The translations under genes and the position numbers were made by a program. A stretch of DNA of 64,000 nucleotides from Vicinamibacterales bacterium (GTDB lineage Bacteria > Acidobacteriota > Vicinamibacteria > Vicinamibacterales > UBA8438): NCBI GenBank assembly GCA_965217045.1, contig OZ244229.1, forward strand, positions 265,768 to 329,767, given 5' to 3'. Of this stretch, positions 230 through 49,983 are shown one piece after another. How positions within the stretch are numbered: the stretch's first letter is position 1; each line of letters begins with the position of its first letter. The notes under the pieces were generated by a model that did not search any database, had not been told where the DNA came from, and saw only the letters and a program-made list of their open reading frames with translations.

Positions 230-1097
230 GTAGAGTCGAGGAGAGGCGCGTAGCCGGTAGGGGGTCGGTGGCTTATCCGGCGCTTTCGCAATCGGGCCGC
301 AGGCCGAGTCCCGTGGGTACGTTTCCTCCCCCCGCTCTCCGAACCCGGCGGGCCGATTTCCGGCACCGGGCTCTCCAGTGGAATCATGCGGCTCGCGCAC
401 GGGCTTCCCGGTCACGACCAGCGGACGGGTCTCGCGAGCCCTGGCACCAGGCTCGCACCCTTGAGCCGGCCGGCCGGTGCGTCGTCAGGCCTGTTGACGC
501 CCTGGCGACGGCGACCGCTCGGGTCGTCCCCTTCGCTTGTGCATGTGATGACATCCGGCATTCCTGCTCATCTCCGGGGTGATAGGCCGTTCGGCCACTC
601 CCGTGAGCCTGCTCCCTTTCGCCATCGCTTCCACCTGAGGTCCCTTCCCTCCGCCGGCATTACCCGGCTTCCTCGGTACCTACGGACCTCTCCGCCACCC
701 TGACCGGCCCGACCTGACCCTCGCGGGCTGTCCGTTGGCGCGTGCCACGCCACCGGCAGGGCTTCCCGTGTTGCGACCAATCCCCTCTTCCACACGTGCC
801 GCCGCCATTACCCCGGCGGAACCGGTCGGTGCTCGCGTCGCTCGCTTCCCGACCGCTGGCAGCCTTCCCCGTTATTCCGGCGGGTCGGCTTCCGCGTTAC
901 CCGTTTCGAGGCCTGCTCGGCGTTCAACGTCGTTGCGGCCCGCGTGGTCGCTGAACCGCCCAAGGCGGCCCTTTGTCGTCGGAGTGCTTCAGCCGATGTC
1001 GTTGCCTCCGTCGTCCGCTCCGACTGCTACCGGCTGGAGCGACAGTTGCCGGGCGGGATTCGCACCCGCTGAGGAATGGCACCTTGTCACGGCGCAC
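230..1097 (-). ncRNA. ORF-less group II intron (868 nt)
   Basis: This insert is absent from the paralogous site 55068/55069. On the minus strand it starts GUGCGCC and ends CUCUAC, and lies exactly between codons 7 and 8. A domain V motif is at 373-341. No RT/maturase ORF is present in six frames. Confidence 0.75.
341..373 (-). ncRNA. group II intron domain V
   Basis: The minus-strand sequence is GAGCCCGGUGCCGGAAAUCGGCCCGCCGGGUUC. The lower helix GAGCCCGG/CCGGGUUC carries the AGC triad, there is a 2-nt 3' bulge, and the upper helix GCCG/CGGC is capped by a GAAA-containing loop. Confidence 0.75.
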
Positions 1098-11980: not shown

Positions 11981-14844
11981 CTACGCTCGAACCGTCGAGA
12001 TCACGGAACTCGTGCCCGATACCTGGCCCGAAGCATGGCTGCCGCTGATGGCGCCGCGGTTGCGCCCGACCAGGCCGCCGACGTTTTCCGTGCCCGTTAC
12101 GACGCCAGTGACGTGGCTGTCGGTGATAGAGCCCGAGCTCGGGAGCGTACCGACCAGACCACCGACGTTGACATTGCCGGTCACGTTGACGTCGACCAAG
12201 CTGATTCCGGTCAACCCGCCGGAACGCCCAGCGACAGGCGTCCCGACAGACCCGAACAAGGCGACACTACCAACCTGCGTCGGCCGGTTGATGAACAGAT
12301 TGGCGATTGCGTGGCCGTTGCCCTTGATGCTGAACCTTGCCGGGAAGGGGAACCACCCGGCGCCGTCGTCCCAGTAGTCGTCGCCCGCGTCGGCACCCCC
12401 GCTCCCGTTCGTGTCGAAGTCCAGGTCCGCCTCCAGTTCGTAGCCGACGCATCCGTCCGGACATCCCATGCCCAGCGCGCCCTCGGCGAACGCCGACGTT
12501 GCGTAGTAGGACGTCCAGTTCGCGACTCTATCCACCGCACCGTCGGCATCCTGGTCGTAGCGCATGGCATCGAGTTGCGCCAGGTTGGAGATCTCGATAT
12601 AGCCGTCGTCGTCGGTGTCGTAGTCCCGCGTCCCCGGCGTGACCGTGACCGTGACCGTCCGCACCGCGCTCAGCCCATCGGGATCGGTCGCCCGCACCCA
12701 CACCGCGATGCGCCCGGGGGCGAGCGGCGTCAGGGTCAGGGCAGACCCGCTCATGCTGGCCGTGACGTAATCGGGATCGGTCGACAACGCCGTGTAGGTC
12801 AAGGAGTCGGTGTCCGGGTCGGCGAACCCGCTCTCCACGCTCAGCGTCACCGCGTCGGCGCCCGGGGCCAGCGTCGGCACGCTCAGGGTGCCCTCCACGG
12901 TCGGCGCCTCGTTGCGGTCCGCCGCGGCCACGTCCACCGCATCGACCGCACCCGGCGCCATCACGATCCCGGCGCCCGAGTCTCTGTCCACGCCTGTCGC
13001 CTCGATGTCCAGCGCGGACCCGGTCAGCGCCGTGCGAAGGCCCGCCAGCGTGACCTTCGCCGGACCGCCAGCGGCCTCCAGCAACAACGCGCCGATCCCT
13101 GCGGCGTGCGGCGCCGCCGACGAGGTGCCGCAGAACGTCGCGAATTCAGGTGCCGACGTCGAAACGCACGTCGCCGCCACGATGTCCGGCTTCTGTAGCA
13201 GTTCCCCGCCGGTCGACGAGAAGTTCCCGGCTGTAATCGGCGCGCCGTCCGCCTCGAAGAACATCCGGCGCGGCCCGTCCGAGCTGTCCGTCCGGATCGA
13301 CTCCGTGCCATCGAAGACACCGCCGGCTCCGGCAGCGGTGCGAACGTCGACGGCACCGACGGTCACCGCTTTCTCGGCGGCCGAGTGTCTGGCCGGCGGT
13401 CGCGACCGCCAACTGCCCCCTGAACGTGTCGAGACGCAGATAGCGGTTCGCCGCACCGGAGGCCTTGACGACAACCAGACGGGCATCGGCGTGGTCCGAG
13501 GAGGAATTGATGGACTCGATCGGGTCCTGCGAGCCGTCCTGCGAGTTGGTCGAGCTCGCGAGCACGTTACCGTCGGCGTCGACCAGGAAGAGGTCGTAGT
13601 CGTTCGCGGACGCCCCCAGTGGATCCGCCCACTGGAGGACGAGAGAGGCCGACCTTCGTGATCCGGTTCTCTTCCACACCGCCGCCGAAGTCGTGGGCCT
13701 TGCCGACCGAGACACCGTCGACCTCGAAGTCCGTTCCCTCGGCGTAGTCCCCTTCCCAGACCCCCGACGTGCCGTCGTTGAGATTGCCAGCGTTGCCGGC
13801 GGAGGAAAAGAGAAAGCAGCCGTCGGCAGCCGCGTCGTTCACCGCCCGCGCCACGACGCCGTCCCGAAAGACTGGTTCGAGAAAACAGAAGATGTCGTCG
13901 ACGATGACGTCCGCGCCGGCAGCGCACAGGTCCTCGATGTTCTGCGCCAGCCGCGCCTCCCCGCCACGGCCTGTGGCGAAGTACAGCTCGGCGCCCGGCG
14001 CGAGATCGTGGGCGATCTCGAGCATGGCCGTTCCCTCGTCGCCGCCCTGGCCCGTTACGAGACCAGCGATCGACAACGGCCCGCCCTCCTGTCCGGGCAG
14101 CACCGTCACCTGCGAGGGCAGATCCCCCGACGCCTGACGCTCGGCGAGGGTCCTGACACCGTCCGAGATCACGCCAATCCCTATACCGGTGCCGTCGACG
14201 CCGTATATGGTGCGTGCCAGGTTCGACCGGTGGGCCATGTCGCCCGCCGAGGCGTTGTCCTTGCGAGTTATCGCTTGATCCGGCATGCCCCTCGCAGCGA
14301 GCGGGGCCGCCGACACCTGAGCTGCCGTGCTCGCCTTGTCCGCCGGCCGGATCGCACGAACCGCGTCCAACGCGGCCAGGCGCTCGATGGAAGCAATGGG
14401 AAGCAAGGCCCGGACGGACCGATACCTGGGTACGCTGTTGACGACCGAGCCGCCCAGCTCACGGATGCGCGCCAGCACCGCTGGTGTGACGTCGGCCCGG
14501 ATGTCCACCAGCACCCGGCCGCCCCCGGCTGGCCCGTCGGGAACCTGCTCGACAGGCTCTACTTCCTCCCGCGGCGGCCGGCGCGACCGCCGCGGCGCCT
14601 CGGCTGCCGCCAGCTTCAGCAGCCCCGAGCCGACCTTGCGCTGCGCGGGTGTCCGCTGCGCCTTTGCGGGCAGGAGTGCGGCGATCTCAGCGCGCGCTCG
14701 CCGTGCAGCCGCCGTCGGTGGTGTTGCTTCCCCCCGCACGCCTGCGGGTACCGGGCGGCCCGGCTTGGCTGTGCCGGACTGGGACCCGAGGCTCGTTGGA
14801 GTGACACCAGGCTGCGTTCCGCCGCCCACCTCTGGTAGCGGCAA
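11981..14844 (-). pseudogene. S8 (subtilisin-like) serine peptidase with C-terminal GLUG-type (GGLVG) repeats; two frameshifts
   Basis: Three consecutive frames carry one protein. 14844 to about 13645 holds GIGIGVISDG and the propeptide-like region. About 13645 to 13380 holds LQWADPLGASANDYDLFLVD. About 13380 to 11981 holds GTSSAAPHAAG (catalytic Ser) followed by GGLVG repeats. Confidence 0.75.
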
Positions 14845-15448
14845 GATGAAAAGGACTCCTCACCATTTTGCAAGTGTCTTTTTGCGTCGTCGTGACGGCG
14901 GTCGAGATGGGCGTGAGGTGACGGGATGGCGCATGGACGCTGCCGTCGCCGTGGACGCAAAGAACGCGCCCACCGCGCCTTGGACACGCCGCAGACGACG
15001 TGCCCACAGCGCCCACGAGCCGTTTCGTCATCGGACTCGCCAAGGCGTGGCGAATGTCGATCGAGAGCGTGTGTTACGAGTTCACGCGGTGACATTTCCT
15101 GCACGGTGCGGGTCGAAGCAGGTGCCGTCGCGGAGCATGGCGCAGGCGACGTTGAGCAGGCGGTCGGCCACTGAGCGCAGGGAGCGGGCGTGTCCATGGC
15201 CGCGGCTGCGCAGCGCCTGATACTTGGCGCGGCTGACCGGGTCGCGGTGGGCAGCGACGCGAGCCCAGTGGTAGGCGGCGTCGCGCAGCCGGTCGTGGGC
15301 AGCCAGGCGGCGCACCACGAGCAGGCTCTTGCCCGAACGCCGGGTGACCGGCGCCACCCCGCAGAGACAGCGAAGCGCGGCGTAGTCCCGCCGCCGCAGC
15401 GCGTCGCTGAGGTTGCCCCGATCTCGTGGACAGGTTAAGGCTTTCGGT

Positions 15449-16414
15449 TCACGTCATGGTGTGTACATCAACATTGATTCCTGTGGTCGGTGTGGATCCC
15501 GTGCGCAGCGCGGGATCCAACGGACTTGTGGGCGCCCGTAGGGCGTCCACAGGCCGGGCACCGTCCACAGCGCCGGCCTGATGGAGCCGTTCGAACTCCA
15601 GTGGCGCCCGGTAGCCGAGCGCGGAGTGACGCCGCCGTGTGTTGTACCACCCCTCGATGAACTCGAACAACGCCGCCCGTGCTTCGGCGTGCGTTGACAG
15701 CGTCGTTCGGTCGAGCAGCTCGCACTCCAGGGTCGCGAAGAAGCTCTCGGCCATCGCATTGTCGAAGCAATCGCCGACCGAACCCATCGATAGCGCGACG
15801 CCCCGTTCCCGGCAGCGAGCGCCGAAGGCCAGCGAGGTGTACTGGCAGCCTTGGTCGGAGTGATGGATGACCGCCTCGGGCCGCCGTTGCGCCACGGCCA
15901 TCTCCAGCGCCTCGACCACCAGCGCGGTGCGAAGATGCCCCGCCATGGCCCAACCGACGACGCGCCGGCTGAACACGTCGAGGACGATGGCCAGGTACAG
16001 GAAGCCGGCCAGGGTCGGGACGTAGGTGATGTCGGCGACCCAGAGCCGGTTCGGCGCGTCCGCCTCGAAGCGCCGCTCGACCCGATCCGGGGCCGGGCGG
16101 GCCTGGGCATTCCGGCGTGTCGTGCGAGGGCCGCGGCGCCGGCTCACCCCGGCGACGCCGACGGACCGCATGACCCGGGCGACCCGCTTGCGGCTCACCG
16201 CGACACCGCCCTCGGTCAGTTCGGCGTGAATCCGAGGAGCACCATACGTCCCTCGACTCCGGCCGTGAATCGCCTGGACGCGAGCCCGGAGCTCGGCATC
16301 GGCCCGTGCCCGAGCCGACGGAGGACGACGACGCCACGCGTAGTACCCGCTCGGGGAGACACCGAGCACCCGGGCCATCGTGGCGACACGGAAACGAGCC
16401 TGATTCGCGCTCAT
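15449..16414 (-). CDS. IS3 transposase OrfB (rve integrase core)
   Basis: ORF track. Motifs WVADITYV, HSDQGCQYTS and NAMAESFFATLECEL. Confidence 0.9.
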   Translation of the reverse strand: MSANQARFRVATMARVLGVSPSGYYAWRRRPPSARARADAELRARVQAIHGRSRGTYGAPRIHAELTEGGVAVSRKRVARVMRSVGVAGVSRRRGPRTTRRNAQARPAPDRVERRFEADAPNRLWVADITYVPTLAGFLYLAIVLDVFSRRVVGWAMAGHLRTALVVEALEMAVAQRRPEAVIHHSDQGCQYTSLAFGARCRERGVALSMGSVGDCFDNAMAESFFATLECELLDRTTLSTHAEARAALFEFIEGWYNTRRRHSALGYRAPLEFERLHQAGAVDGARPVDALRAPTSPLDPALRTGSTPTTGINVDVHTMT

Positions 16415-16719
16415 GACCCGGTAGGTCTCCCGGGTCGGGTCTCCCGCGCGAACCAGGCCGTTGCCTTTGCCAATATCTCTCGCTCTTCGCGCAGGCGCCG
16501 GTTCTCCCGGCGCAGCCGGCGAAGCTCTTCACGCTCCTCCGTGCGCAGCCCGTCGCTGCGCTCGCCCGCATCGCGGCCCACCTGCGCGACCCAGGTTCGG
16601 ATCGCCTGGGACGACGGCTCGAACTCGCGAGCCAGGTCCTCCGGCGCACGTCCGGACCGAACCAGGTCGACCATCTGTTGCCGGAACTCCGCCGCGTACG
16701 GTGGTCTCGTCTTCGGCAT
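16411..16719 (-). CDS. IS3 transposase OrfA (HTH)
   Basis: MPKTRPPYAAEFRQQMVDLVRSGRAPEDLAREF... with a leucine-zipper-like tail. It overlaps orfB by ATGA. Confidence 0.85.
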   Translation of the reverse strand: MPKTRPPYAAEFRQQMVDLVRSGRAPEDLAREFEPSSQAIRTWVAQVGRDAGERSDGLRTEEREELRRLRRENRRLREEREILAKATAWFARETRPGRPTGS

Positions 16720-17980
16720 CGCGGATACTCCTTCTCCCCCCAAGAGGATAGGTGTCCACGAAACCGGGGCAACTTCATCGCTACCCTCGGCAAGCAGACA
16801 AGCGAGGACGCCGGTGCCGATGCCGGGCAGCGATAGCAGGATGGCCGCGTCGGGCGGCGGTGGCGACGGCTCTGGCTCGCTCTCGGCGGGCGCGTCCGGG
16901 TCTTCCGCCGGTGCGGCCTCGGCGAGCTGGTGCACCAATCGGTCGAGCTGGCTGCGCGTGCGCCAGTTGCCGGTTGACCAGTACGAGGCGTTCGGCGACG
17001 AGCCGCACATGCGCGGCGGCGGCCTCGGCGGCACCTGGCGCGACCCGGACGGCCGGCGCCCGCAGCCGGTCACACAGCGTCGCGGCGTCGACCCGGCGGA
17101 TGCGGTGCTGTTTCAACAACTTGGCGAGCGTCGCTTCGCGAACGCGCTGCGCCGCAACCGGCGTCGGCAGGCGCCGCCACAGGGCGAGCGCCCAGGACGC
17201 CGCGACATCGTCGCTGGTCGCGGCGAGCAGCTGCGGGTAGTAGCGCCAGAGCTGCTCGCGCATCCGGTTCGCCTGGCGAACGCGTTCCCGCGTAATCTCC
17301 TCGCTCAGGCGCGACCACTCCCGCAACTCGACGATCGCTGGGTCGGTCGGCTCCAGCCGCCGCAGACAGTGCGGGTCGGTGCGTAGCGCCGAGGCCAGCA
17401 CCCGCGCATCCCGTCGGTCATCCTTCGCCCCCGCCGGCGAGATGCGGTCGCGGAAGCGGTCGAGCTGCTTCGGATTGATCGCGTGGACAGCGAAGCCCCG
17501 TTCCATCAGGCTCTCGACCACCGGCCCGCGCGGTGTCTCGATCGCCACGCCGACCTGCTCCGCCTTACCCGCCGTAAAAGACAGAAGCCAGTCCGCCATC
17601 TCCGACAGCCCCTGGCCGCCATGCTCGAACGCCCGCTCGCCGAGCAGCTTCCCGGCAACGTCGCTTACGCACGCTTGGTGCGTCTGCGATCCCCAGTCGA
17701 CACCCACGAACCAGGCCAGCTCCACATCGAACCTCCTATCTGCCGCATTTCACGGGCGCGCCAACGATGCCTGCCGGTCCCTGTACTGGCGCTCGATGGC
17801 GCAAACTCCCCACGGGGCATCCATCGCTGGCTGAACGCCGGGGCACAAGTCCTTTTCAAGTGCTCGAGACACAGGGACCCCTCGGTGGCTCCCGGCGGCC
17901 TGCCCGACTCCGCGAGATTTGAGATTTACCCGCGCGAAGTCATTGAGAAAGGTACAGGGACCCCGTGGCCACTTGAAATG

Positions 17981-19726
17981 GACTCCCCACCATTTTGCAA
18001 GTGCCTTTTTGCGTCGTCGTGACGGCAGTCGAGATGGGCGTGAGGTGACGGGATGGCGCATGGACGCTGCCGTCGCGGTGGACGCAAAGACGCGCCCACC
18101 GCGCCTTGGACACGCCGCAGACGACGTGCCCACAGCGCCCACGAGCCGTTTCGTCATCGGACTCGCCAAGGCGTGGGGAATGTCGATCGAGGGCGTGTGT
18201 TGCGAGTTCACGCGGTGACATTTCCTGCACGGTGCGGGTCGAAGCAGGTGCCGTCGCGGAGCATGGCGCAGGCGACGTTGAGCAGGCGGTCGGCCACTGA
18301 GCGCAGGGAGCGGGCGTGTCCATGGCCGCGGCTGCGCAGCGCCTGATACTTGGCGCGGCTGACCGGGTCGCGGTGGGCGGCGACGCGAGCCCAGTGGTAG
18401 GCGGCGTCGCGCAGCCGGTCGTGGGCAGCCAGGCGGCGCACCACGAGCAGGCTCTTGCCCGAACGCCGGGTGACCGGCGCCACCCCGCAGAGACAGCGAA
18501 GCGCGGCGTAGTCCCGCCGCCGCAGCGCGTCGCTACCCTCGGCAAACAGACAAGCGAGAACGCCGGTGCCGATGCCGGGCAGCGATAGCAGGATGGCCGC
18601 GTCGGGCGGCGGTGGCGACGGCTCTGGCTCGCTCTCGGCGGGCGCGTCCGGGTCTTCCGCCGGTGCGGCCTCGGCGAGCTGGTGCACCAATCGGTCGAGC
18701 TGGCTGCGCGCGTGCGCCAGTTGCCGGTTGACCAGTACGAGGCGTTCGGCGATGAGCCGCACATGCGCGGCGGCGGCCTCGGCGGCACCTGGCGCGACCC
18801 GGACGGCCGGCGCCCGCAGCCGGTCACACAGCGTCGCGGCGTCGACCCGGCGGATGCGGTGCTGTTTCAACAACTTGGTCAGCGTCGCTTCGCGAACGCG
18901 CTGCGCCGCAACCGGCGTCGGCAGGCGCCGCCACAGGGCGAGCGCCCAGGGCGCCGCGACGTCGTCGCTGGTCGCGGCGAGCAACTGCGGGTAGTAGCGC
19001 CAGAGCTGCTCGCGCATCCGGTTCGCCTGGCGAACGCGTTCCCGCGTAATCTCCTCGCTCAGGCGCGACCACTCCCGCAACTCGACGATCACTGGGTCGG
19101 TCGGCTCCAGCCGCCGCAGACAGTGCGGGTCGGTGCGTAGCGCCGAGGCCAGCACCCGCGCATCCCGTCGGTCATCCTTCGCCCCCGCCGGCGAGATGCG
19201 GTCGCGGAAGCGGTCGAGCTGCTTCGGATTGATCGCGTGGACAGCGAAGCCCCGTTCCATCAGGCTCTCGACCACCGGCCCGCGCGGTGTCTCGATCGCC
19301 ACGCCGACCTGCTCCGCCTTACCCGCCGTAAAAGACAGAAGCCAGTCCGCCATCTCCGACAGCCCCTGGCCGCCATGCTCGAACGCCCGCTCGCCGAGCA
19401 GCTTCCCGGCAACGTCGATTACGCACGCTTGGTGCGTCTGCGATCCCCAGTCGACACCCACGAACCAGGCCAGCTCCACATCGAACCTCCTATCTGTCGC
19501 ATCTCACGGGCGCGCCAACGATGCCTGCCGGTCCCTGTACTGGCGCTCTGCGGCGCAAACTCCCCACGGGGCATCCATCGGAGGCTGAACCGCCGGGGCA
19601 CAGGTCCTTTTCAGGTGCTCGATGCACAGGGACCCCCTGGGTGCTCCCGGCGGTCTGCCCGACTCCGCGAGGCCATCCCGCGAAGTCGTCCGGAAGGGTA
19701 CAGGGACCCCGTGGCCACTTGAAATG
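17981..19726 (-). mobile_element. IS110-family element, copy B (variant), head-to-tail with copy A
   Basis: Right end GACTCCCCACCATTTTGCAAG from 17981. Left end ...GTGGCCACTTGAAATG at 19726, followed by GGACCCCC of the IS21. The terminal 7 bp are shared or ambiguous with the IS21 end. Confidence 0.85.
18208..19479 (-). CDS. IS110-family DEDD transposase (423 aa)
   Basis: ORF track. N-terminal FVGVDWGSQTHQACV and C-terminal LLSLPGIGTGVLA motifs. It differs from copy C at about 7 residues. Confidence 0.9.
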   Translation of the reverse strand: MELAWFVGVDWGSQTHQACVIDVAGKLLGERAFEHGGQGLSEMADWLLSFTAGKAEQVGVAIETPRGPVVESLMERGFAVHAINPKQLDRFRDRISPAGAKDDRRDARVLASALRTDPHCLRRLEPTDPVIVELREWSRLSEEITRERVRQANRMREQLWRYYPQLLAATSDDVAAPWALALWRRLPTPVAAQRVREATLTKLLKQHRIRRVDAATLCDRLRAPAVRVAPGAAEAAAAHVRLIAERLVLVNRQLAHARSQLDRLVHQLAEAAPAEDPDAPAESEPEPSPPPPDAAILLSLPGIGTGVLACLFAEGSDALRRRDYAALRCLCGVAPVTRRSGKSLLVVRRLAAHDRLRDAAYHWARVAAHRDPVSRAKYQALRSRGHGHARSLRSVADRLLNVACAMLRDGTCFDPHRAGNVTA

Positions 19727-20422
19727 GGACCCCCTGAGCACTCGGAAACAGCGCTCGCCTGGCGATAATCGAGGTGGCGAGACACGGTCGTCTCGTCGAC
19801 CGAGCCAGGAGGACGCGGAGGTGATCAGGATGTCCCAGTGGGTCGAGGTCCGCCACCTGCATCTGGTGGAGGGTGTGCCGAAGAAGGAGATCGCCCGTCG
19901 GTTGAAGTTGGATGTCAAGACGGTGCGGCGGGCCATCGGCCGGCCGACGCCGCCGGTGCGGGTGTCGCCGCCGCGGCCCAGCACCCTGGCCCCGTGGCGG
20001 GAGCAGATCAAGCAGTGGCTGTGCGCGGAGCCGCGGTTGACTGTCAGCAGTCACTTCGAACTGATCAATTCTGGACGCGTGTCGGTGCACCGGGCCGGTT
20101 GCCTGGTTCGTCGACGTCTTGATGAAGAAGAAGATGATGGCTGTGGTCGCTGTGCGAAACTGCGTCTGCGCGGTTTTGCAAACTCCTGTGGGCGCGGTTG
20201 TTTGCGTCCACAGGAGTGGCGGCGTCCACAGCCTCCGGAGCTGGCGGGCAGCGACTCGTTCGGGTAGCGTAGGCAGCGGGCTGAAACGTGGGGTGAGGGC
20301 CCGGTATGGCCAGCGGACCCTCGTGACCGCCCCGAGCTCCGACAGAGCGAGCCGGTCGGTGCTGTTGTGCCACGGTTCGAACGCGTTGTCCAGTCGGAGA
20401 TCGCCCCGCGCGCTCCGACGCC

Positions 20423-20902
20423 GTGGACGTCCCGCTCCGCCAGAAGACCTGCCGACGTTGCAGTCGCCTGTTTGCCATCTGCGCGGCGTGTGATCGCGGC
20501 CATGCTTACTGCACGCCGCCGTGCCGGGTGCTCGGCCGGCGCCGCTCGGTGCGGGCCGCCCGGGCTCGGCATCAGCGGAGCCTGGAAGGTCGCCTCGACC
20601 ACCGCGACCGCCAGCGCGCCTACCGCGTCCGCCGCCGCGTGACGGATCAGGGTTCCGCCGCCCCCCGGCCATCGGCCAGACTCCCCGTCGTTGATCTCGC
20701 CCCGGTTCGGGCGCCCGCGGCCACCCGCTGCGTGGTCTGCGGGCGGTCGAGCCGGTGGCTGGTCGCGAGGCGGGAACCCCGCGTCCATCGGAAGAGGAGC
20801 GACGATGATCACGCCCGCGCAGCGCGCCGAGATCCGGCGTCTGTACTACGGCGAGCACTGGAAGATCGGGACCATCGCGGCCCAGCTCGGCCTCCACCGT
20901 GA
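20423..20902 (+). CDS. Cys-rich (zinc-ribbon-like) accessory ORF in the left arm of IS21 b
   Basis: ORF track. KTCRRCSRLFAICAACDRGHAYCTPPCR...RHQRSLEGRLDHRDRQRAYR...RCVVCGR. The start and the stop are uncertain, and the tail overlaps istA. Confidence 0.35.
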   Translation: MDVPLRQKTCRRCSRLFAICAACDRGHAYCTPPCRVLGRRRSVRAARARHQRSLEGRLDHRDRQRAYRVRRRVTDQGSAAPRPSARLPVVDLAPVRAPAATRCVVCGRSSRWLVARREPRVHRKRSDDDHARAARRDPASVLRRALEDRDHRGPARPPP

Positions 20903-22300
20903 GACGGTCCGGACTGCGGTCGAGCACGAGTCGGGCGGTGTCCGCCGCGGGGTGTGCCGGCCCAGCGCTCTCGACCCGTATCTGCCGTTCATCCGCGACA
21001 CGCTCCCGCCTGCGCGCCACGCGCATCCACGAGATGGTCCGCCAGCGCGGCTATCCCGGCTCGGTCATCCAGGTCCGACGCCTCGTCAAGCGCCTGCGGC
21101 CTGAGACCACCCGCGCCGTCTACCGTCGGGTCGTCACGCTGGCCGGCGAGTCCGCGCAGGTCGACTGGGGCTCGTTCGGCAAGGTCCGCATCGGACACGG
21201 CACCCGCGCCGTCTCCGGATTCGTCATGGTCCTCGGCTACTCGCGCGCCCTCGCCGCATTGTTCACCCTCGACCAGACCCTCGAGAGCTTTCTGCGGGGC
21301 CACGTCGACGCCTTCGAAGCCCTCGGCGGCGTCGCCCGCAACCTCGTCTACGACAACCTGCGCAGCGCCGTGCTCGACCGCCGCGGCACGGCCGTGCAGT
21401 TTCACCCCCGCCTGCTCGACCTCGCCGGCCACTACCACTTCGCGCCCCGCCCCTGCACGCCGGGACGCGGAAACGAGAAGGGGAAAATCGAACGGCAGAT
21501 CCAATACCTGCGGCACGCCTTCTTCGCCGCCCGGCCCTTCCGCGACCTCGACGACCTCAACGCCCAGTTCCGACGCTGGCGAGACGACGTCGCCCACCGA
21601 CGGCGTCACCCCGAACTGCCCGACCGCACCGTCGCCGACGTCTGGGCCGACGAGAAGCCCCGACTGCTGCCGCTGCCCGCCCATCGCTTCGAGACCGAGC
21701 TCGTGCGCGTCGTCCGCTCCGGCAAGACACCCTACGTCCGCTTCGACCGCAATCTCTACTCGGATCCCCCACACCCACGTCCGAAAGCCCCTGACGCTGC
21801 TCGCCAGCGCCACCCGCGTCCGCATCCTCGACCAGCAGACCGAGCTGGCCCGCCATCCCCGCAGCTATGACACCGGACAGACCGTCGAGGACCCCGCGCA
21901 TCTGGAAGGGCTGCTCGCCGCCACCCGCCAAGCCAACGTCCACACCACCCGCGACCGGCTCCGCGCCGCCGTCCCCGCCACCGCCGCCCTCTTCGAGCGG
22001 CTTGCGGAGCGCGGCGAGGCGCTACGACCGCATGCCACCAGGCTGCTCGCTCTGCTCGACGACTACGGACCGCAGGAGCTGGCTGCCGCCGTCGACGACG
22101 CCCTCCAACGGGACGCCCTCGGTGCCGGCTCGATCACCCACATCCTCGAAACGCGCCGGCGACAGCGCGGACTCAAACCGCCGCTCCGCCTCACGCTACC
22201 CGACCGACCCGGACTGCGAGACCTCGACGTCCGGTCCCATAACCTGGAGACCTACGATGCCCTCGGCCGACACGACCACCACGACGACGCTGGCGACTAA
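20805..22300 (+). pseudogene. istA: IS21 transposase IstA (b), two frameshifts (about 21000 and about 21765)
   Basis: MITPAQRAEIRRLYYGEHWKIGTIAAQLG.../...RLRATRIHEMVRQRGYPGS...DWGSFG.../...IPHTHVRKPLTLLASATRVRILD... are spread over three frames. Confidence 0.85.
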
Positions 22301-23188
22301 GGACAGTGATCGATATAAGGTTGCCACGTGCATCCAGGCGGAGCCCGTTTTCTGCGGCTTCGGGCGCTCGGCACACAGCAAGGTAATTTCCGTCAGTGTC
22401 CTAACCTCCGGCGACTCGGCTTCAACCGCACCGCCGACGACCTCAACGACCTCATCGCTCAGGCCGCCCGCAAGCGCTCGAGCGCCACCGTCCTGCTCGA
22501 ACACATCGTCGCCGCTGAGCTCGAAGACAAACAGCGCCGTAGCGTCGAGAGCCGACTCACCCGCGCCCGTCTCGGACGCTTCAAGCCGTTCGCCGACTGG
22601 GACTGGCAATGGCCCACCGCGCTGGACCGTCCCACCCTCGAACGCATCCTCACGCTCGACTTCCTCGCCCGCGGCGAGAACGTCATCCTCGTCGGTGCGC
22701 AAGGCTTGGGGAAGACCATGCTGGCGAAGAACGTCGCCCACCAAGCCATCCTCACTGGGCACACCGCCCTCTTCACCACCGCCGCCGATCTGCTGCTCGA
22801 CCTCAATGGACAGGAGACCGCACGCGCCCTCGAACGACGCCTCCGGCACTACACGCGGCCCGCGCTCATCGTGGTCGATGAGGTGGGCTACCTCGCCTAC
22901 GACGCCCGAGCCGCCGACCTGCTCTTCCAACTCGTCAGCCGCCGCTACGAGCACCGCTCCTTGCTCATCACCACCAACCTGCCGTTCAAGCGCTGGGACA
23001 CCGTCTTCCCCAACGCCTCGTGCGCCGTCGCACTGATCGACCGGCTGACCCACCACGTCGAGATCCTGCTCCTTGAAGGCCGGAGCTATCGCAGGCGCGA
23101 GGCCGAGATCAGCCAGCAGGAGCGAAACCGCCAACGATCGCACCGTGACGACGCGCCGGAATCACCGCGACCCTCACGTCGTCAATGA
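22257..23188 (+). pseudogene. istB: IS21 IstB (b), interrupted after codon 14 by a MITE
   Basis: MPSADTTTTTTLAT(22257-22300) joins NLRRLGFNRTADDL... in frame once 104 bp (MITE plus one TAA) are removed. Walker A GAQGLGKTM. Confidence 0.8.
22301..22401. mobile_element. 101-bp MITE derived from the ISAzo13-like element ends
   Basis: Inverted ends GGACAGTGATCG... and ...CGTCAGTGTCC, flanked by TAA at 22298-22300 and 22402-22404. The arms match the ends of the element at 57429-58723 (about 22/25 and 22/28). Confidence 0.75.
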
Positions 23189-24505
23189 GACCGGTCGATA
23201 CCTGTGCAGAAATGATCAGTTTCTCGCGCTCGGCAACAGTTGACCGCCAAACGGATTCGCCGGTTGCTGCTGCCGTTGGCCGGACCGCTCCCGGCTCGCA
23301 CGGTGCGCCGCTACGTCGCGGGACTGCGGGCAGCCGGCACCGCGAAGGAGGCTTTCGTGCACCGTAGCGTGCTCCCCGGCACGACGATGGAGGTCGACTT
23401 CGGCGAGTCGTGGGTCGATGTCGCCGGCGTGCCGTGCAAGGTGAAGTACCTGGTGGCGACGCTGCCGTTCTCCAACGCGTACTTCGCCAAGGCGTACCCG
23501 GTTGAGCGTCTCGAGTCGCTGCTCGACGGCATCGAGTCGGCGTTTTGGTACCTTCGGGGGCGTCGTGAAACGCCTCGTCCTGGACAACACCTCGCTGGCG
23601 GTCAAGAAGGTGTTGGCGGGCCGGGACCGGGTGCAGACCGAGGCGTTCGAAGCATTCCGGGGCGGGTATCCCTTCGGTGCCGAGTTCTGCGCGCCGGCCA
23701 AGGGCTGGGAGAAGGGTTCCGTGGAGGGCGGTGTCAAGTACGTCCGCAACCTGGTGTTGCGGCCGCGGCTGGCGGTGGCGAGCTGGGCGGCGCTCAACGC
23801 GGCGATCCTCGCCGAGCTGGAGGCGGACCTGCCGACGCGCCACCTCGACGACGGGCGCTCGGTGCAGGACGCGTTGACACTGGAACGGCAGCATCTGCGA
23901 GCGATGCCCGTGCACCTTCCCGCCACCTGCCGCGTCGTCGCGCGAGTGGCCGACAAGTTCGGACACGTCCGGGTGGACCACGTCACCTACTCGGTACCGA
24001 TCCGCCACGCCTACCGGCCGGTGTGGGTGAAGCTGTATCACGACCGGGTGGCGGTCGCCGTCGGCGCCGAGGTGGTGGCGCAGCACGCCCGCGCGTTCTG
24101 CAGAGGCACGAAGGTCCTCGATGCGTTTCACGTGCTGCCGTTGCTCGAGCGCAAGCACCGGGCGGTGGCCGAGGCGACGGCGCTCGTCGACTGGCCGCTG
24201 GCGCCGGTGTGGCGGCAGGTGCGGGCCGAACTGGCCAGGCACACGCGCAAGCCCGATCAGGAGTGGGTCCGGATGCTGCGGCTGATGGAGACGCAGCCGG
24301 CCGCGGCCGTCGAGCGCGCGGTGACGGCCGCGCTCGAGCGCCATTCGCCGCGTCTCGAGACGGTGCGGCTCCTCCTGCGCCAGCAGCAGAGTGGCCCGCC
24401 GCCGGTGTGCCGGCCGGTGACGGGGGTGCGTCCGGAACTGGCGCAGATCGTGGTGCCCACCCCGACGCTGTCGGCGTATGACGCTCTGGTGGAGGGCCGT
24501 TGCTA

Positions 24506-25294
24506 ATGGTGACCGCGATTGCCGAGCCGCCGCATTTGGAGACGGACCTGAAGACGCTGTGCCTGTCGACGGTCGCGACGCAGTGGCGGCCGCTGGCCGA
24601 GCAGGCCACCCGCCAGCGTCAGCCGCCGGCCGACTACCTGGCTCAGTTGGTCCATCTGGAGGTGACCGGCCGCCGGGAGCGCCGCATCCAACGCCGCATC
24701 CAGGATGCTCGCTTCCCGATGCTCAAGACGCTCGACGCCTTCTCGTTCGACGCACAGCCGGACCTGGACCGCGACGCGGTCCTGCACATCTTCGACTGCC
24801 GCTTCGTCGCCGACGCCGCCAACGTCGTGTTCGTCGGCGGAGTCGGCACGGGGAAGACGCATCTGTCGATCGCGTTGGGGATGGCCTGCTGCCAGCACGA
24901 CTACCGGGTGCGGTTCGTGACCGCCGCCGAACTGGTCACGCTGCTCGTCGAAGCGCAGCAACAGGGCCGACTGCAACGCAAGCTCGACCAGCTCGCCCGC
25001 TACGACGTCGTAATCCTCGACGAACTGGGCTACGTGCCGTTCGACAAGGCCGGCGCCGACCTGCTGTTCGGCTTCATCAGCCAGCGCTACGAGCGCCGGA
25101 GCCTCGTCGTGACGACGAATCTGCCGTTCGCGCGCTGGTCCGAGGTGTTCCTCGACACCACGGCCGCCGCCGCGGTCATCGACCGGATCGTCCACCACGC
25201 CACCGTGTTGACGACCGCCGGCGACAGCTACCGGCTCAAGACCGCCACACGCAACCAGGCGTCCCGCGCGCCACAGGAGGTGCCACGGCAATAG
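24506..25294 (+). CDS. istB: IS21 helper ATPase IstB (a)
   Basis: Walker A GGVGTGKTH and Walker B VVILDELGY. Its ATG overlaps the istA stop (TAATG). Confidence 0.9.
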   Translation: MVTAIAEPPHLETDLKTLCLSTVATQWRPLAEQATRQRQPPADYLAQLVHLEVTGRRERRIQRRIQDARFPMLKTLDAFSFDAQPDLDRDAVLHIFDCRFVADAANVVFVGGVGTGKTHLSIALGMACCQHDYRVRFVTAAELVTLLVEAQQQGRLQRKLDQLARYDVVILDELGYVPFDKAGADLLFGFISQRYERRSLVVTTNLPFARWSEVFLDTTAAAAVIDRIVHHATVLTTAGDSYRLKTATRNQASRAPQEVPRQ

Positions 25295-25297
25295 CGC

Positions 25298-25350
25298 TCA
25301 TCGCGACGTGGCCTCCCGTCGCTCCGCTCCGTCCGGCCACGTCGCGATGA
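25298..25350 (+). terminator. 16-bp perfect hairpin just after the istB (a) stop
   Basis: TCATCGCGACGTGGCC (25298-25313) pairs with GGCCACGTCGCGATGA (25335-25350) across a 21-nt loop. There is no U-tract. Confidence 0.4.
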
Positions 25351-25376
25351 CCACCACAACCCAAGAATGGGGGTCC

Positions 25377-25632
25377 CATTTCACGTGGCCACAAAGGTCC
25401 CTGTACCTTTCTCAATGACTTCGCGCGGGTAAATCTCAAATCTCGCGGAGTCGGGCAGGCCGCCGGGAGCCACCGAGGGGTCCCTGTGTCTCGAGCACTT
25501 GAAAAGGACTTGTGCCCCGGCGTTCAGCCAGCGATGGATGCCCCGTGGGGAGTTTGCGCCATCGAGCGCCAGTACAGGGACCGGCAGGCATCGTTGGCGC
25601 GCCCGTGAAATGCGGCAGATAGGAGGTTCGAT
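25377..25632 (+). ncRNA. candidate structured non-coding RNA in the IS110 left end (bridge-RNA-like)
   Basis: This is 256 nt of non-coding sequence upstream of the GTG start. It has an 11-bp long-range complement (25396-25406 with 25572-25582) and several internal hairpins. It also has an 11-mer that is the reverse complement of the element's right junction. See the findings. Confidence 0.4.
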
Positions 25633-26904
25633 GTGGAGCTGGCCTGGTTCGTGGGTGTCGACTGGGGATCGCAGACGCACCAAGCGTGCGTAAGCGACGT
25701 TGCCGGGAAGCTGCTCGGCGAGCGGGCGTTCGAGCATGGCGGCCAGGGGCTGTCGGAGATGGCGGACTGGCTTCTGTCTTTTACGGCGGGTAAGGCGGAG
25801 CAGGTCGGCGTGGCGATCGAGACACCGCGCGGGCCGGTGGTCGAGAGCCTGATGGAACGGGGCTTCGCTGTCCACGCGATCAATCCGAAGCAGCTCGACC
25901 GCTTCCGCGACCGCATCTCGCCGGCGGGGGCGAAGGATGACCGACGGGATGCGCGGGTGCTGGCCTCGGCGCTACGCACCGACCCGCACTGTCTGCGGCG
26001 GCTGGAGCCGACCGACCCAGCGATCGTCGAGTTGCGGGAGTGGTCGCGCCTGAGCGAGGAGATTACGCGGGAACGCGTTCGCCAGGCGAACCGGATGCGC
26101 GAGCAGCTCTGGCGCTACTACCCGCAGCTGCTCGCCGCGACCAGCGACGATGTCGCGGCGTCCTGGGCGCTCGCCCTGTGGCGGCGCCTGCCGACGCCGG
26201 TTGCGGCGCAGCGCGTTCGCGAAGCGACGCTCGCCAAGTTGTTGAAACAGCACCGCATCCGCCGGGTCGACGCCGCGACGCTGTGTGACCGGCTGCGGGC
26301 GCCGGCCGTCCGGGTCGCGCCAGGTGCCGCCGAGGCCGCCGCCGCGCATGTGCGGCTCGTCGCCGAACGCCTCGTACTGGTCAACCGGCAACTGGCGCAC
26401 GCGCGCAGCCAGCTCGACCGATTGGTGCACCAGCTCGCCGAGGCCGCACCGGCGGAAGACCCGGACGCGCACGCCGAGAGCGAGCCAGAGCCGTCGCCAC
26501 CGCCGCCCGACGCGGCCATCCTGCTATCGCTGCCCGGCATCGGCACCGGCGTCCTCGCTTGTCTGCTTGCCGAGGGTAGCGACGCGCTGCGGCGGCGGGA
26601 CTACGCCGCGCTTCGCTGTCTCTGCGGGGTGGCGCCGGTCACCCGGCGTTCGGGCAAGAGCCTGCTCGTGGTGCGCCGCCTGGCTGCCCACGACCGGCTG
26701 CGCGACGCCGCCTACCACTGGGCTCGCGTCGCTGCCCACCGCGACCCGGTCAGCCGCGCCAAGTATCAGGCGCTGCGCAGCCGCGGCCATGGACACGCCC
26801 GCTCCCTGCGCTCAGTGGCCGACCGCCTGCTCAACGTCGCCTGCGCCATGCTCCGCGACGGCACCTGCTTCGACCCGCACCGTGCAGGAAATGTCACCGC
26901 GTGA
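25633..26904 (+). CDS. IS110-family DEDD transposase (423 aa)
   Basis: ORF track. GTG start 6 nt after AGGAGG. Confidence 0.9.
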   Translation: MELAWFVGVDWGSQTHQACVSDVAGKLLGERAFEHGGQGLSEMADWLLSFTAGKAEQVGVAIETPRGPVVESLMERGFAVHAINPKQLDRFRDRISPAGAKDDRRDARVLASALRTDPHCLRRLEPTDPAIVELREWSRLSEEITRERVRQANRMREQLWRYYPQLLAATSDDVAASWALALWRRLPTPVAAQRVREATLAKLLKQHRIRRVDAATLCDRLRAPAVRVAPGAAEAAAAHVRLVAERLVLVNRQLAHARSQLDRLVHQLAEAAPAEDPDAHAESEPEPSPPPPDAAILLSLPGIGTGVLACLLAEGSDALRRRDYAALRCLCGVAPVTRRSGKSLLVVRRLAAHDRLRDAAYHWARVAAHRDPVSRAKYQALRSRGHGHARSLRSVADRLLNVACAMLRDGTCFDPHRAGNVTA

Positions 26905-27133
26905 ACTCGTAACACACGCTCTCGATCGACATTCGCCACGCCTTGGCGAGTCCGATGACGAAACGGCTCGTGGGCGCTGTGGGCACGTCGTCTGCGGCGT
27001 GTCCAAGGCGCGGTGGGCGCGTCTTTGCGTCCACGGCGCCGGCAGCGTCCATGCGCCATCCCGTCACCTCACGCCCATCTCGACCGCCGTCACGACGACG
27101 CAAAAAGACACTTGCAAAATGGTGGGGAGTCCT

Positions 27134-49897: not shown

Positions 49898-49983
49898 GCC
49901 GGGGTGGCGAAACTGGCAGACGCACGGGACTTAAAATCCCGTGGCCCTGACGGGCCGTGTGGGTTCGATCCCCACCCTCGGCA
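49898..49983 (+). tRNA. tRNA-Leu (anticodon UAA)
   Basis: Manual cloverleaf. Acceptor GCCGGGG/CCTCGGC, anticodon stem CGGGA/TCCCG with loop CTTAAAA, long variable arm GGCCC-TGAC-GGGCC, and T arm GTGGG-TTCGATC-CCCAC. CCA is not encoded. Confidence 0.9.

What the first reader, a model, noticed from the sequence alone, without database searches (positions are those of the whole stretch)
25377..25632. IS110 left end looks like a bridge/guide RNA gene: it contains same-sense and antisense copies of the element's own junction halves
The 256-nt untranslated left end has three notable features.
- An 11-bp long-range complement, GGTCCCTGTAC (25396-25406) with GTACAGGGACC (25572-25582), would enclose about 165 nt.
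- GGGGTCCC occurs twice. It is the same-sense copy of the GGGGGTCCC flank found to the left of copies B and C.
- TGAAAAGGACT lies inside the near-palindromic GCACTTGAAAAGGACTTGTGC (25495-25515). It is the exact reverse complement of the copy A right junction AGTCC|TTTTCA (plus-strand 14847-14857), matches 10/11 for copy C (27128-27138), and matches 10/11 for the RE-LE joint AGTCCATTTCA.

An 11-mer match within 256 nt is very unlikely by chance. IS110-family recombinases are known to use a left-end-encoded bispecific RNA that pairs with both donor and target, and this element shows the corresponding sequence signatures.
Basis: partly seen in the sequence, partly recalled or inferred. Interest (0 to 1): 0.8.

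Follow-up and report, generated by a model that had tools for sequence, protein, structure and literature searches.

The report
IS110 bridge RNA gene, three copies
The untranslated left end of this IS110-family insertion sequence encodes a typical two-loop "bridge" guide RNA that specifies both the element's own ends and its insertion site, so it is a new example of a mechanism described in 2024 rather than a new kind of system.

Summary
The sequence features are real and sit at the stated coordinates. The bridge-RNA reading holds.

- **Structure.** Across 39 related left ends the region folds into a 5' stem-loop plus two stem-loops with large internal loops. 96% of cells pair, and 18 of 31 pairs show compensatory changes.
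- **Target loop.** The first loop is hypervariable and tracks each element's flanks. Cognate match is 14.1 of 18 against 10.0 for non-cognate pairs (0 of 20000 permutations).
- **Donor loop.** The second loop is conserved and matches the conserved element ends, GGTGGGGAGT-CC-TGTACC.

- The canonical left end starts at the CC core, 25400-25401, not at 25377. The 23 nt at 25377-25399 are a sub-repeat of the target.
- The 11-bp "long-range stem" is the right donor guide plus handshake guide (25572-25582). It is complementary to the left junction GGTC-CC-TGTAC.
- TGAAAAGGACT is the right target guide plus handshake guide. It is complementary to the right junction.
- The GCAC...GTGC palindrome is not supported by covariation.
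- The "RE-LE joint" is a right end abutting a target sub-repeat.

No transcript evidence exists. Verdict: a new member of a known kind, of modest interest.

The parts
25377..25399 (+). Target-derived sub-repeat (CATTTCACGTGGCCACAAAGGTC). This is flank, not part of the mobile element.
   Evidence: Relatives start at CC-TGTACC. L002 has the same outer flank without this segment. Copies A and C are 100% identical only from 25396 inward.
25400..25407 (+). Core CC (25400-25401) plus right donor TGTACC. This is the canonical left terminus of copy C.
   Evidence: Conserved in 26 aligned left ends. Junction comparison.
25417..25452 (+). 5' stem-loop of the bridge RNA (GACUUCGCG / CGCGGAGUC). Its loop carries an 8-nt duplication.
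   Evidence: Helix 1: 91% of cells paired, 3 pairs with compensatory changes. Recovered in the minimum-free-energy folds.
25459..25524 (+). Target-binding stem-loop. Basal stem is 25459-25470 with 25514-25524. Distal hairpin is 25486-25498.
   Evidence: helices 1 and 2: 98% and 95% paired. 9 of 11 basal pairs show compensatory changes.
25475..25484 (+). Left target guide GAGGGGUCCC. It has the same sense as the left flank plus the CC core.
   Evidence: Hypervariable column block that tracks each element's left flank.
25499..25510 (+). Right target guide UUGAAAAGG (25499-25507, antisense to CC-TTTTCAA) plus handshake guide ACU (25508-25510, antisense to AGT of the right end).
Evidence: Handshake guide as defined in PMC11208158.
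25529..25596 (+). Donor-binding stem-loop. Basal stem is 25529-25542 with 25583-25596. Distal hairpin is 25556-25569.
   Evidence: helices 3 and 4: 94% and 99% paired. 6 pairs show compensatory changes.
25545..25555 (+). Left donor guide GUGGGGAGUUU. It has the same sense as the right-end terminus GTGGGGAGT-CC. The core positions are U or C, and both can pair with a bottom-strand G.
   Evidence: Conserved alongside the conserved right end. Core-position dinucleotides are UU, UC, CU or CC in 37 of 40 cases.
25572..25582 (+). Right donor guide GUACAGG (antisense to CC-TGTAC) plus handshake guide GACC (antisense to GGTC of the left flank).
Evidence: Invariant GTACAGG in 39 sequences. The first handshake nucleotide forms a Watson-Crick pair with left-target position 7 in 38 of 40 cases.
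25633..26904 (+). IS110-family recombinase, 423 aa, DEDD plus Ser.
   Evidence: Pfam PF01548 and PF02371. NCBIfam NF033542 'IS110 family RNA-guided transposase', 164 bits against a cutoff of 140. Aligns to the IS621 transposase 8wt6.
27112..27132 (+). Right-end terminus. It comprises the -35-like TTGCAA (27112-27117), the left donor GGTGGGGAGT (27121-27130) and the core CC (27131-27132).
   Evidence: cTTG(A/C)CAAA.GGTGGGGAGTCC is conserved in relatives down to 59% protein identity.
27133..27152 (+). Right target flank TTTTCTAGTTGCCATTTCCA, reaching the tip of an IS21-type terminal repeat.
   Evidence: Flanks of relatives diverge immediately after ...CCA. An IstB gene lies at 24500-25294.
17980..19704 (-). 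Copy B.
- Left core: 19704-19703.
- Left target guide: 19639-19629.
- Right target guide: 19614-19606.
- Left donor guide: 19567-19557.
- Right donor guide plus handshake guide: 19540-19530.
- Recombinase: 19479-18208.
- Right core: 17981-17980.
   Evidence: The minimum-free-energy fold gives the three-domain structure, z = -1.99.
14853..17958 (-). Copy A.
- Left core: 17958-17957.
- Left target guide: 17883-17874.
- Right target guide: 17859-17851.
- Left donor guide: 17813-17803.
- Right donor guide plus handshake guide: 17786-17776.
- The recombinase gene is split by an IS3-family insertion at 15409-16777.
- Right core: 14854-14853.

Best explanation
The stretch from about 25410 to 25600 is the gene for a bridge RNA of an IS110-family element. 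The equivalents on the minus strand are roughly 19692-19510 (copy B) and 17946-17760 (copy A).

**Architecture.** The RNA has a 5' stem-loop and two stem-loops, each with a large internal loop.

**First loop (target-binding).**
- Its 5' side, GAGGGGUCCC, has the sense of the left flank plus the CC core. [quoted passage not shown]
- Its 3' side, UUGAAAAGG, is antisense to CC-TTTTCAA. It would pair with the top strand.

**Second loop (donor-binding).** It reads the element's own ends in the same way.
- GUGGGGAGUUU matches the right end, GTGGGGAGT-CC.
- GUACAGG matches the left end, CC-TGTAC.

**Handshake guides.** Next to each 3' guide sit a few nucleotides (ACU and GACC) that pair only with the other DNA partner. 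As a result each 3' arm is an exact 11-nt complement of a recombination product junction.

**Reaction.** The DEDD/Ser recombinase encoded downstream would use this RNA to recombine donor and target at the CC core.

**Shown here:** the structure, the guide-to-flank covariation, the donor-guide match and the protein family.

**Inferred from IS621 work:** transcription, RNA binding by the recombinase and the strand-exchange chemistry.
For: **Protein.**
- Pfam DEDD_Tnp_IS110 plus Transposase_20.
- NCBIfam 'IS110 family RNA-guided transposase', above its cutoff.
- Homology to the IS621 and ISCro4 transposases in the PDB.
- Residues D10, E63, D103, D106 and S340 are invariant.

**Element ends.** They are defined by 80 related loci. 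The conserved ends are CC-TGTACC and GGTGGGGAGT-CC, with varied flanks.

**Structure.**
- 26-sequence alignment: 95% of cells paired, against 32-48% when partners are slid. 11 pairs have two-sided changes, and 0 of 500 shuffles reach that.
- 39-sequence alignment: 96.2% paired, 18 of 31 pairs compensatory, 102 compensatory cells, 0 of 500 shuffles on every measure.

**Target loop.** The two hypervariable blocks match each element's own flanks.
- L039: guides GUGUCACC and GUGCCGG against target GTGTCA-CC-GGCAC.
- L006: guides GCGAUCCC and CAAAUGG against target GCGATC-CC-ATTTG.
- Over 33 guide families the cognate score is 14.09 of 18 against 9.97 for non-cognate pairs, with 0 of 20000 permutations reaching it.

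**Donor loop.** It is conserved and present once in each of the three copies.

**Fit to published descriptions.**
- The architecture and strand rules match the published account of IS621.
- They also match the IS621 left end read directly from an E. coli genome.

**Recent activity.** Copies A and C are 100% identical over 1009 nt.
Against: - There is no transcript or binding evidence.
- Thermodynamic stability is not distinctive for copy C (z = -0.64 and -0.23). Its minimum-free-energy fold prefers an alternative pairing between the left target guide and the right donor guide.
- Rfam 15 gives no bridge-RNA match.
- The promoter expected across a canonical right-end/left-end junction has a well-conserved -35 but only a weak -10 (TACCTT). 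No such junction exists in the window.
- Copy C's left target guide matches its actual flank (AAAGGTC) at only 5 of 7 non-core positions by Watson-Crick pairing. The other two positions would be rG:dT wobbles.
Confidence: 0.9

Rival explanations
1. The repeated junction-like motifs are subterminal protein-binding sites for the transposase at both ends. They act as double-stranded DNA, and no RNA is involved.
For: GGTCCCTGT occurs at the left junction and again inside the left end. GTGGGGAGT occurs at the right end and inside the left end. In the abstract, this is how subterminal repeats look.
Against: - The stems flanking the motifs keep pairing through 18 two-sided compensatory changes, which double-stranded DNA binding sites do not require.
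- The internal copies have a fixed strand logic: 5' arms are same-sense and 3' arms antisense.
- The variable block tracks the flanking host DNA, which is not part of the element.
- C/U alternation at the core positions of the left donor guide preserves pairing with G but not sequence identity.
Confidence: 0.03
2. The structured left end is only a 5' UTR or attenuator controlling recombinase translation. The matches to the junctions are by-products of insertion-site similarity between donor and target.
For: - The region lies directly upstream of the ribosome-binding site and start codon (AGGAGG at 25621-25626, GTG at 25633).
- Earlier IS110 literature proposed regulatory roles for the ends (cited in PMC11208160).
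- Donor and target resemble each other here (GGGGAGT-CC against GGGGGTC-CC).
Against: - Relatives whose targets are unrelated to the donor still carry matching guides. Examples are GTGTCA-CC-GGCAC and AGCATA-CC-CCCGTGG.
- A UTR role does not explain covariation with host flanks.
- The structured part ends about 35 nt before the start codon and does not sequester the ribosome-binding site in the conserved fold.
Confidence: 0.04
3. The window's elements are an extended variant whose mobile unit begins at 25377. On this reading the 23-24 nt are carried along, the donor joint is GGGGAGT-CC-ATTTCA, and GUGAAAUG (25606-25613) is the matching right donor guide.
For: - All three window copies and L001 have the segment.
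- Copy C's outer flank is the same as that of L002, which lacks it.
- The B-A joint reads GGAGTCC-ATTTCA.
- GTGAAATG is complementary to CATTTCAC and forms the outer stem of the minimum-free-energy fold.
Against: - Copies A and C are 100% identical for 1009 nt from 25396 inward but differ at 3-4 of the 19 nt just upstream.
- L012 shows the same 24-nt unit as native DNA to the right of an insertion.
- L034 shows two elements occupying adjacent units 22 nt apart.
- The GTGAAATG block is variable and unrelated to whether the segment is present.
Confidence: 0.07

Closest known systems
IS621 bridge RNA and recombinase (E. coli; Durrant et al. 2024, PMC11208160; Hiraizumi et al. 2024, PMC11208158)
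   Same: - The RNA is encoded in the left end upstream of a DEDD/Ser recombinase.
- It has a 5' stem-loop plus two stem-loops with internal loops. The first is variable and the second conserved.
- The left guides have the sense of the DNA top strand and the right guides are antisense.
- A dinucleotide core is read by all four guides.
- Handshake guides pair with the non-cognate partner. As in IS621, the donor-loop handshake starts with G opposite target C7, and the donor has T7.
- The left end begins TGTA- in both (TGTAT in IS621, TGTAC here).
- A TTGACA-like -35 sits in the right end.
   Different: - The proteins are only distantly related (E = 3.5e-9; 423 aa against 326-328 aa).
- The core is CC rather than CT.
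- The right donor guide is a contiguous 7-mer rather than 9 nt read discontiguously.
- Right-guide and handshake complementarity is longer, so that both 3' arms are exact 11-mers of the product junctions.
- The core positions of the left donor guide are UU, giving wobble pairs to G.
- The RNA is G+C-rich and about 190 nt rather than 177 nt.
IS1111-group seekRNA elements such as IS4321/IS5075 (Siddiquee et al. 2024, PMC11187229)
   Same: - RNA-guided DEDD transposases with strict site selection.
- From my own knowledge, not tested here: IS4321/IS5075 insert at a fixed position inside the terminal inverted repeats of other transposons. This resembles the placement of these copies inside IS21-type terminal repeats.
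   Different: From my own knowledge, not tested here: in the IS1111 group the non-coding RNA lies downstream of the transposase, and subterminal inverted repeats are present. Here the RNA is upstream, which is the IS110-group arrangement.

Membership tests
IS110-family bridge RNA system | [quoted passage not shown] | tested here: met
   Invariant residues D10, E63, D103, D106 and S340.
IS110-family bridge RNA system | [quoted passage not shown] | tested here: met
   The published description is quoted.
IS110-family bridge RNA system | In the target-binding loop, the 5' arm has the sense of the left target plus core and the 3' arm is antisense to core plus right target. Both covary with the flanks across orthologues. 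| tested here: met
   cognate score 14.09 against 9.97 non-cognate, 0 of 20000 permutations.
IS110-family bridge RNA system | In the donor-binding loop, the 5' arm has the sense of the right-end terminus plus core and the 3' arm is antisense to core plus left-end terminus. | tested here: met
   GUGGGGAGUUU matches GTGGGGAGT-CC, and GUACAGG matches CC-TGTAC. Both the ends and the guides are conserved, so the support is a sequence match rather than covariation.
IS110-family bridge RNA system | A short core shared by donor and target and read by all four guides. | tested here: met
   CC is present at both junctions of every relative and in both target guides. In the left donor guide the core is read as U or C.
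IS110-family bridge RNA system | Handshake guides complementary to the non-cognate DNA just 5' of the core. | tested here: met
   ACU pairs with donor AGT and GACC pairs with target GGTC. The first handshake nucleotide pairs with left-target position 7 in 38 of 40 cases, but only 3 of these are informative changes.
IS110-family bridge RNA system | A promoter reconstituted across the right-end/left-end junction of the circular form. | tested here: inconclusive
   - TTG(A/C)CA is conserved 15 nt from the right-end terminus.
- With the canonical left end it would sit 17 nt upstream of TACCTT, which matches only 3 of 6 positions of the -10 consensus.
- The consensus scan finds nothing at the B-A joint.
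IS110-family bridge RNA system | The RNA is transcribed, is bound by the recombinase and is required for recombination. | not testable with these tools
   No expression or biochemical data are available.
IS110-family bridge RNA system | A match to a curated or published covariance model. | not testable with these tools
   Rfam 15 gives no relevant match at the gathering threshold or at E up to 10. The published IS621 model is not available here.

The most novel reading that the evidence does not exclude
This clade of IS110 elements may be a specialised parasite of IS21-family elements.
- Its target loop is programmed against the roughly 24-nt sub-repeats inside IS21 terminal inverted repeats. 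It therefore lands at a fixed distance from the IS21 tip and can fill adjacent sub-repeats, giving tandem copies 22 nt apart.
- In addition, the built-in 9-nt complementarity between the left target guide region (GGUCCCUGU, 25479-25487) and the right donor guide plus handshake guide (ACAGGGACC, 25574-25582) could act as an intramolecular switch that masks both loops.
Probability: 0.2. Interest if true: 0.45.

Novelty: new member of a known kind. Interest (0 to 1): 0.3.

Why it matters
It shows that a bridge RNA can be recognised from raw sequence by its junction-mimicking motifs.

It also provides a well-resolved natural series. One clade, mostly from Vicinamibacterales genomes, keeps its donor ends constant while carrying 33 different target-guide pairs.

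The clade has full-length handshake complementarity and a contiguous right donor guide. These could be useful comparison points for engineering bridge recombinases.

It does not change the understanding of the mechanism.

Tried and rejected
- **Rfam scans.** Scans at the gathering and permissive thresholds gave only chance hits in the region.
- **Single-sequence folding.**
  - The minimum-free-energy structures were dominated by guide-to-junction or guide-to-guide pairing.
  - Only copy B's fold reproduced the conserved architecture.
- **RNAalifold outer stem.** RNAalifold proposed an outer stem, columns 55-59 with 211-215. I did not adopt it, because its pairs are almost invariant and it competes with the 5' stem-loop.
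Rejected on covariation.
- **GTGAAATG (25606-25613) as a donor guide for an extended end.** Rejected because the block is variable and unrelated to the segment's presence.
- **Unoccupied target sites.** A search of the window found none beyond those next to the copies.
- **Promoter scan of the B-A joint.** It found nothing.
- **Pattern search.** A first search for the donor loop failed because of a miscounted spacer. The corrected search is.
- **Literature.**
  - The preprint on half-match recombination could not be opened.
  - A search for IS110 insertion into IS21 ends found nothing specific.

Full report
**Observation**

- An inverted repeat of at least 11 bp arises in 0.9% of dinucleotide shuffles of 25377-25632.
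- The 11-mer complementary to the copy A right junction arises in none of 3000 shuffles.
- Three copies of one element are present.
  - Copy C is on the plus strand.
  - Copies B and A lie head to tail on the minus strand.
  - Copy A is split by a 1.37-kb insertion.
- Each copy encodes, or encoded, a 423-aa protein.
  - It carries Pfam DEDD_Tnp_IS110 plus Transposase_20.
  - It scores above the cutoff of NCBIfam 'IS110 family RNA-guided transposase'.
  - It is distantly related to the IS621 and ISCro4 transposases of known structure.

**Where the element really ends**

I fetched 80 related loci. Their proteins are 59-99% identical to the window's, and most come from Vicinamibacterales genomes.
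- The conserved left end begins with CC-TGTACC(T/C)TTC.
- The conserved right end finishes with cTTG(A/C)CAAA.GGTGGGGAGT-CC.
- Beyond those points the flanks differ between insertions.
- In the window this puts the left core at 25400-25401, not at 25377.

Three observations show that 25377-25399 is target DNA.
- Copies A and C are 100% identical for 1009 nt from 25396 inward, but differ at 3-4 of the 19 nt just outside.
- L012 carries the same 24-nt unit, unoccupied, to the right of an insertion.
- L034 has two elements in adjacent units, separated by 22 nt, exactly like window copies B and A.

**Structure**

The 26 aligned left ends show a conserved scaffold with two short hypervariable blocks.

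I tested five helices: a 5' stem-loop, the basal and distal stems of a first stem-loop, and the basal and distal stems of a second.

| Measure | 26 sequences | 39 sequences, down to 59% protein identity |
|---|---|---|
| Cells paired | 95% | 96.2% |
| Cells paired with partners slid | 32-48% | 30-47% |
| Pairs with two-sided changes | 11 | 18 of 31 |
| Compensatory cells | 30 | 102 |
| Shuffles reaching the observed value | 0 of 500 on four of five measures | 0 of 500 on every measure |

This is the architecture Durrant et al. describe: a 5' stem-loop, then two stem-loops with internal loops, the first poorly conserved and the second conserved.

GCAC covaries with the GUG(U/C) strand upstream of it.

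**Guides**

The published rules are as follows.
- Left guides have the sense of the top strand of the left target or left donor plus the core.
- Right guides are antisense to the core plus the right target or right donor.
- Handshake guides next to the right guides pair with the non-cognate DNA.

I checked these rules directly on an IS621 copy from E. coli.

The window element follows them exactly.

| Guide | Coordinates | RNA | Reads |
|---|---|---|---|
| Left target guide | 25475-25484 | GAGGGGUCCC | left flank GGGGGTC-CC |
| Right target guide | 25499-25507 | UUGAAAAGG | CC-TTTTCAA |
| Target-loop handshake guide | 25508-25510 | ACU | donor AGT |
| Left donor guide | 25545-25555 | GUGGGGAGUUU | right end GTGGGGAGT-CC |
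| Right donor guide | 25572-25578 | GUACAGG | CC-TGTAC |
| Donor-loop handshake guide | 25579-25582 | GACC | target GGTC |

Each is complementary to one product junction.

**Covariation with targets**

Relatives insert into quite different sequences, and their first loop changes accordingly.

| Locus | Target | Guides |
|---|---|---|
| L039 | GTGTCA-CC-GGCAC | GUGUCACC / GUGCCGG |
| L006 | GCGATC-CC-ATTTG | GCGAUCCC / CAAAUGG |
| L014 | TTCGTC-CC-CTCCC | UUCGUCCC / GGGAGGG |
| L071 | AGCATA-CC-CCCGTGG | AGCAUACC / CUACGGGGG (8 of 9 positions) |

- Over 33 distinct guide families the cognate match averages 14.09 of 18 positions, against 9.97 for non-cognate pairings. None of 20000 permutations reaches the observed value.
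- The result holds when the constant core is excluded.
- The donor loop is conserved together with the conserved ends.
- At the core positions of the left donor guide, 37 of 40 dinucleotides are U or C at both positions. This keeps pairing with a bottom-strand G.

**What remains inferred**
- There is no transcript evidence.
- A TTGACA-like -35 is conserved at a fixed 15 nt from the right-end terminus. In a canonical circle junction it would lie 17 nt from TACCTT, a weak -10. No canonical junction is present in the window, and the scan of the B-A joint finds nothing.
- Single-sequence folding is not distinctive in this G+C-rich background.
- Rfam has no matching family.

**Comparison and novelty**

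This is an IS110-group bridge RNA system and meets every defining feature that sequence analysis can test.

It differs from IS621 in the following ways.
- The core is CC.
- The right donor guide is contiguous.
- Handshake complementarity is longer.
- The left donor guide reads the core through U:G wobbles.
- The recombinase is larger and only distantly related.

Durrant et al. already predicted thousands of such orthologues. This is therefore a new member of a known kind.

The near identity of copies A, C and L001 suggests recent activity.

Noticed in passing
window 14833-14854 and 27133-27152; also 19705-19733 and 25340-25399: All three IS110 copies sit about 20 bp inside what look like terminal inverted repeats of IS21-family elements.
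- The tips are TTGCCGCTACCA and TTGCCATTTCCA, and the flanks of relatives diverge right after ...CCA.
- An IstB gene lies at 24500-25294, just upstream of copy C.
- The repeats contain 24-nt sub-repeats, GGGGTCCC(T/A)TTTCA.GTGGCCAC, each a potential target.
   Followed up: partly
window 15409-16777: Copy A's recombinase gene is interrupted by an IS3-family element. The ORF at 15449-16414 (minus strand) matches NCBIfam transpos_IS3 at 1e-100 and Pfam rve plus HTH_21.
   Followed up: partly
window 17959-17979 and 19705-19727: Copy B is flanked on both sides by the same 22-nt unit, ATTTCAAGTGGCCACGGGGTCC.
- Either the native IS21-type end has three sub-repeats here, with B and A in the second and third, or the unit was duplicated by some recombination event.
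- Copy B is 96.6% identical to C, whereas A is about 100% identical to C, so B and A arrived independently.
   Followed up: partly
window 25479-25487 with 25574-25582: The left target guide plus the start of the distal stem (GGUCCCUGU) is complementary to the right donor guide plus handshake guide (ACAGGGACC). The minimum-free-energy fold of copy C's RNA pairs the two loops this way. It could be incidental or an alternative, masked conformation.
   Followed up: no
window 25433-25446: The loop of the 5' stem-loop in copies C and A (and in L001) carries an 8-nt tandem duplication, AAATCTCAAATCTC. It is absent from copy B and from all other relatives.
   Followed up: no
L050, around position 2923 (Azospirillum canadense): The right end is followed directly by TGTACCGAAG. 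This is a canonical donor junction, GGAGT-CC-TGTACC, from either a tandem copy or a circle-derived joint.
   Followed up: no
L027 and L021: These insertions have flanks that do not match their own guides. L027 sits in a site of the type used by L006 and L048, and L021's right flank reads CC-TGTACTTC. This suggests recombination between elements or off-target events.
   Followed up: no
window 259-375 and 928-1071 (minus strand); 49898-49983 (plus strand): Rfam matches to a group II intron (domains 1-4 at 80 bits, and the catalytic region at 44 bits), and a tRNA gene.
   Followed up: no
window 19727-25350 and 27141-28233: A dense nest of IS21-type genes surrounds the IS110 copies.
- An IstA-like ORF lies at 20954-22300.
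- IstB genes lie at 24500-25294 and within 27013-28233.
- Copy C's right flank continues into what looks like the 3' part of an IstA gene.
- The two flanks of copy C may therefore not be contiguous in origin.
   Followed up: no
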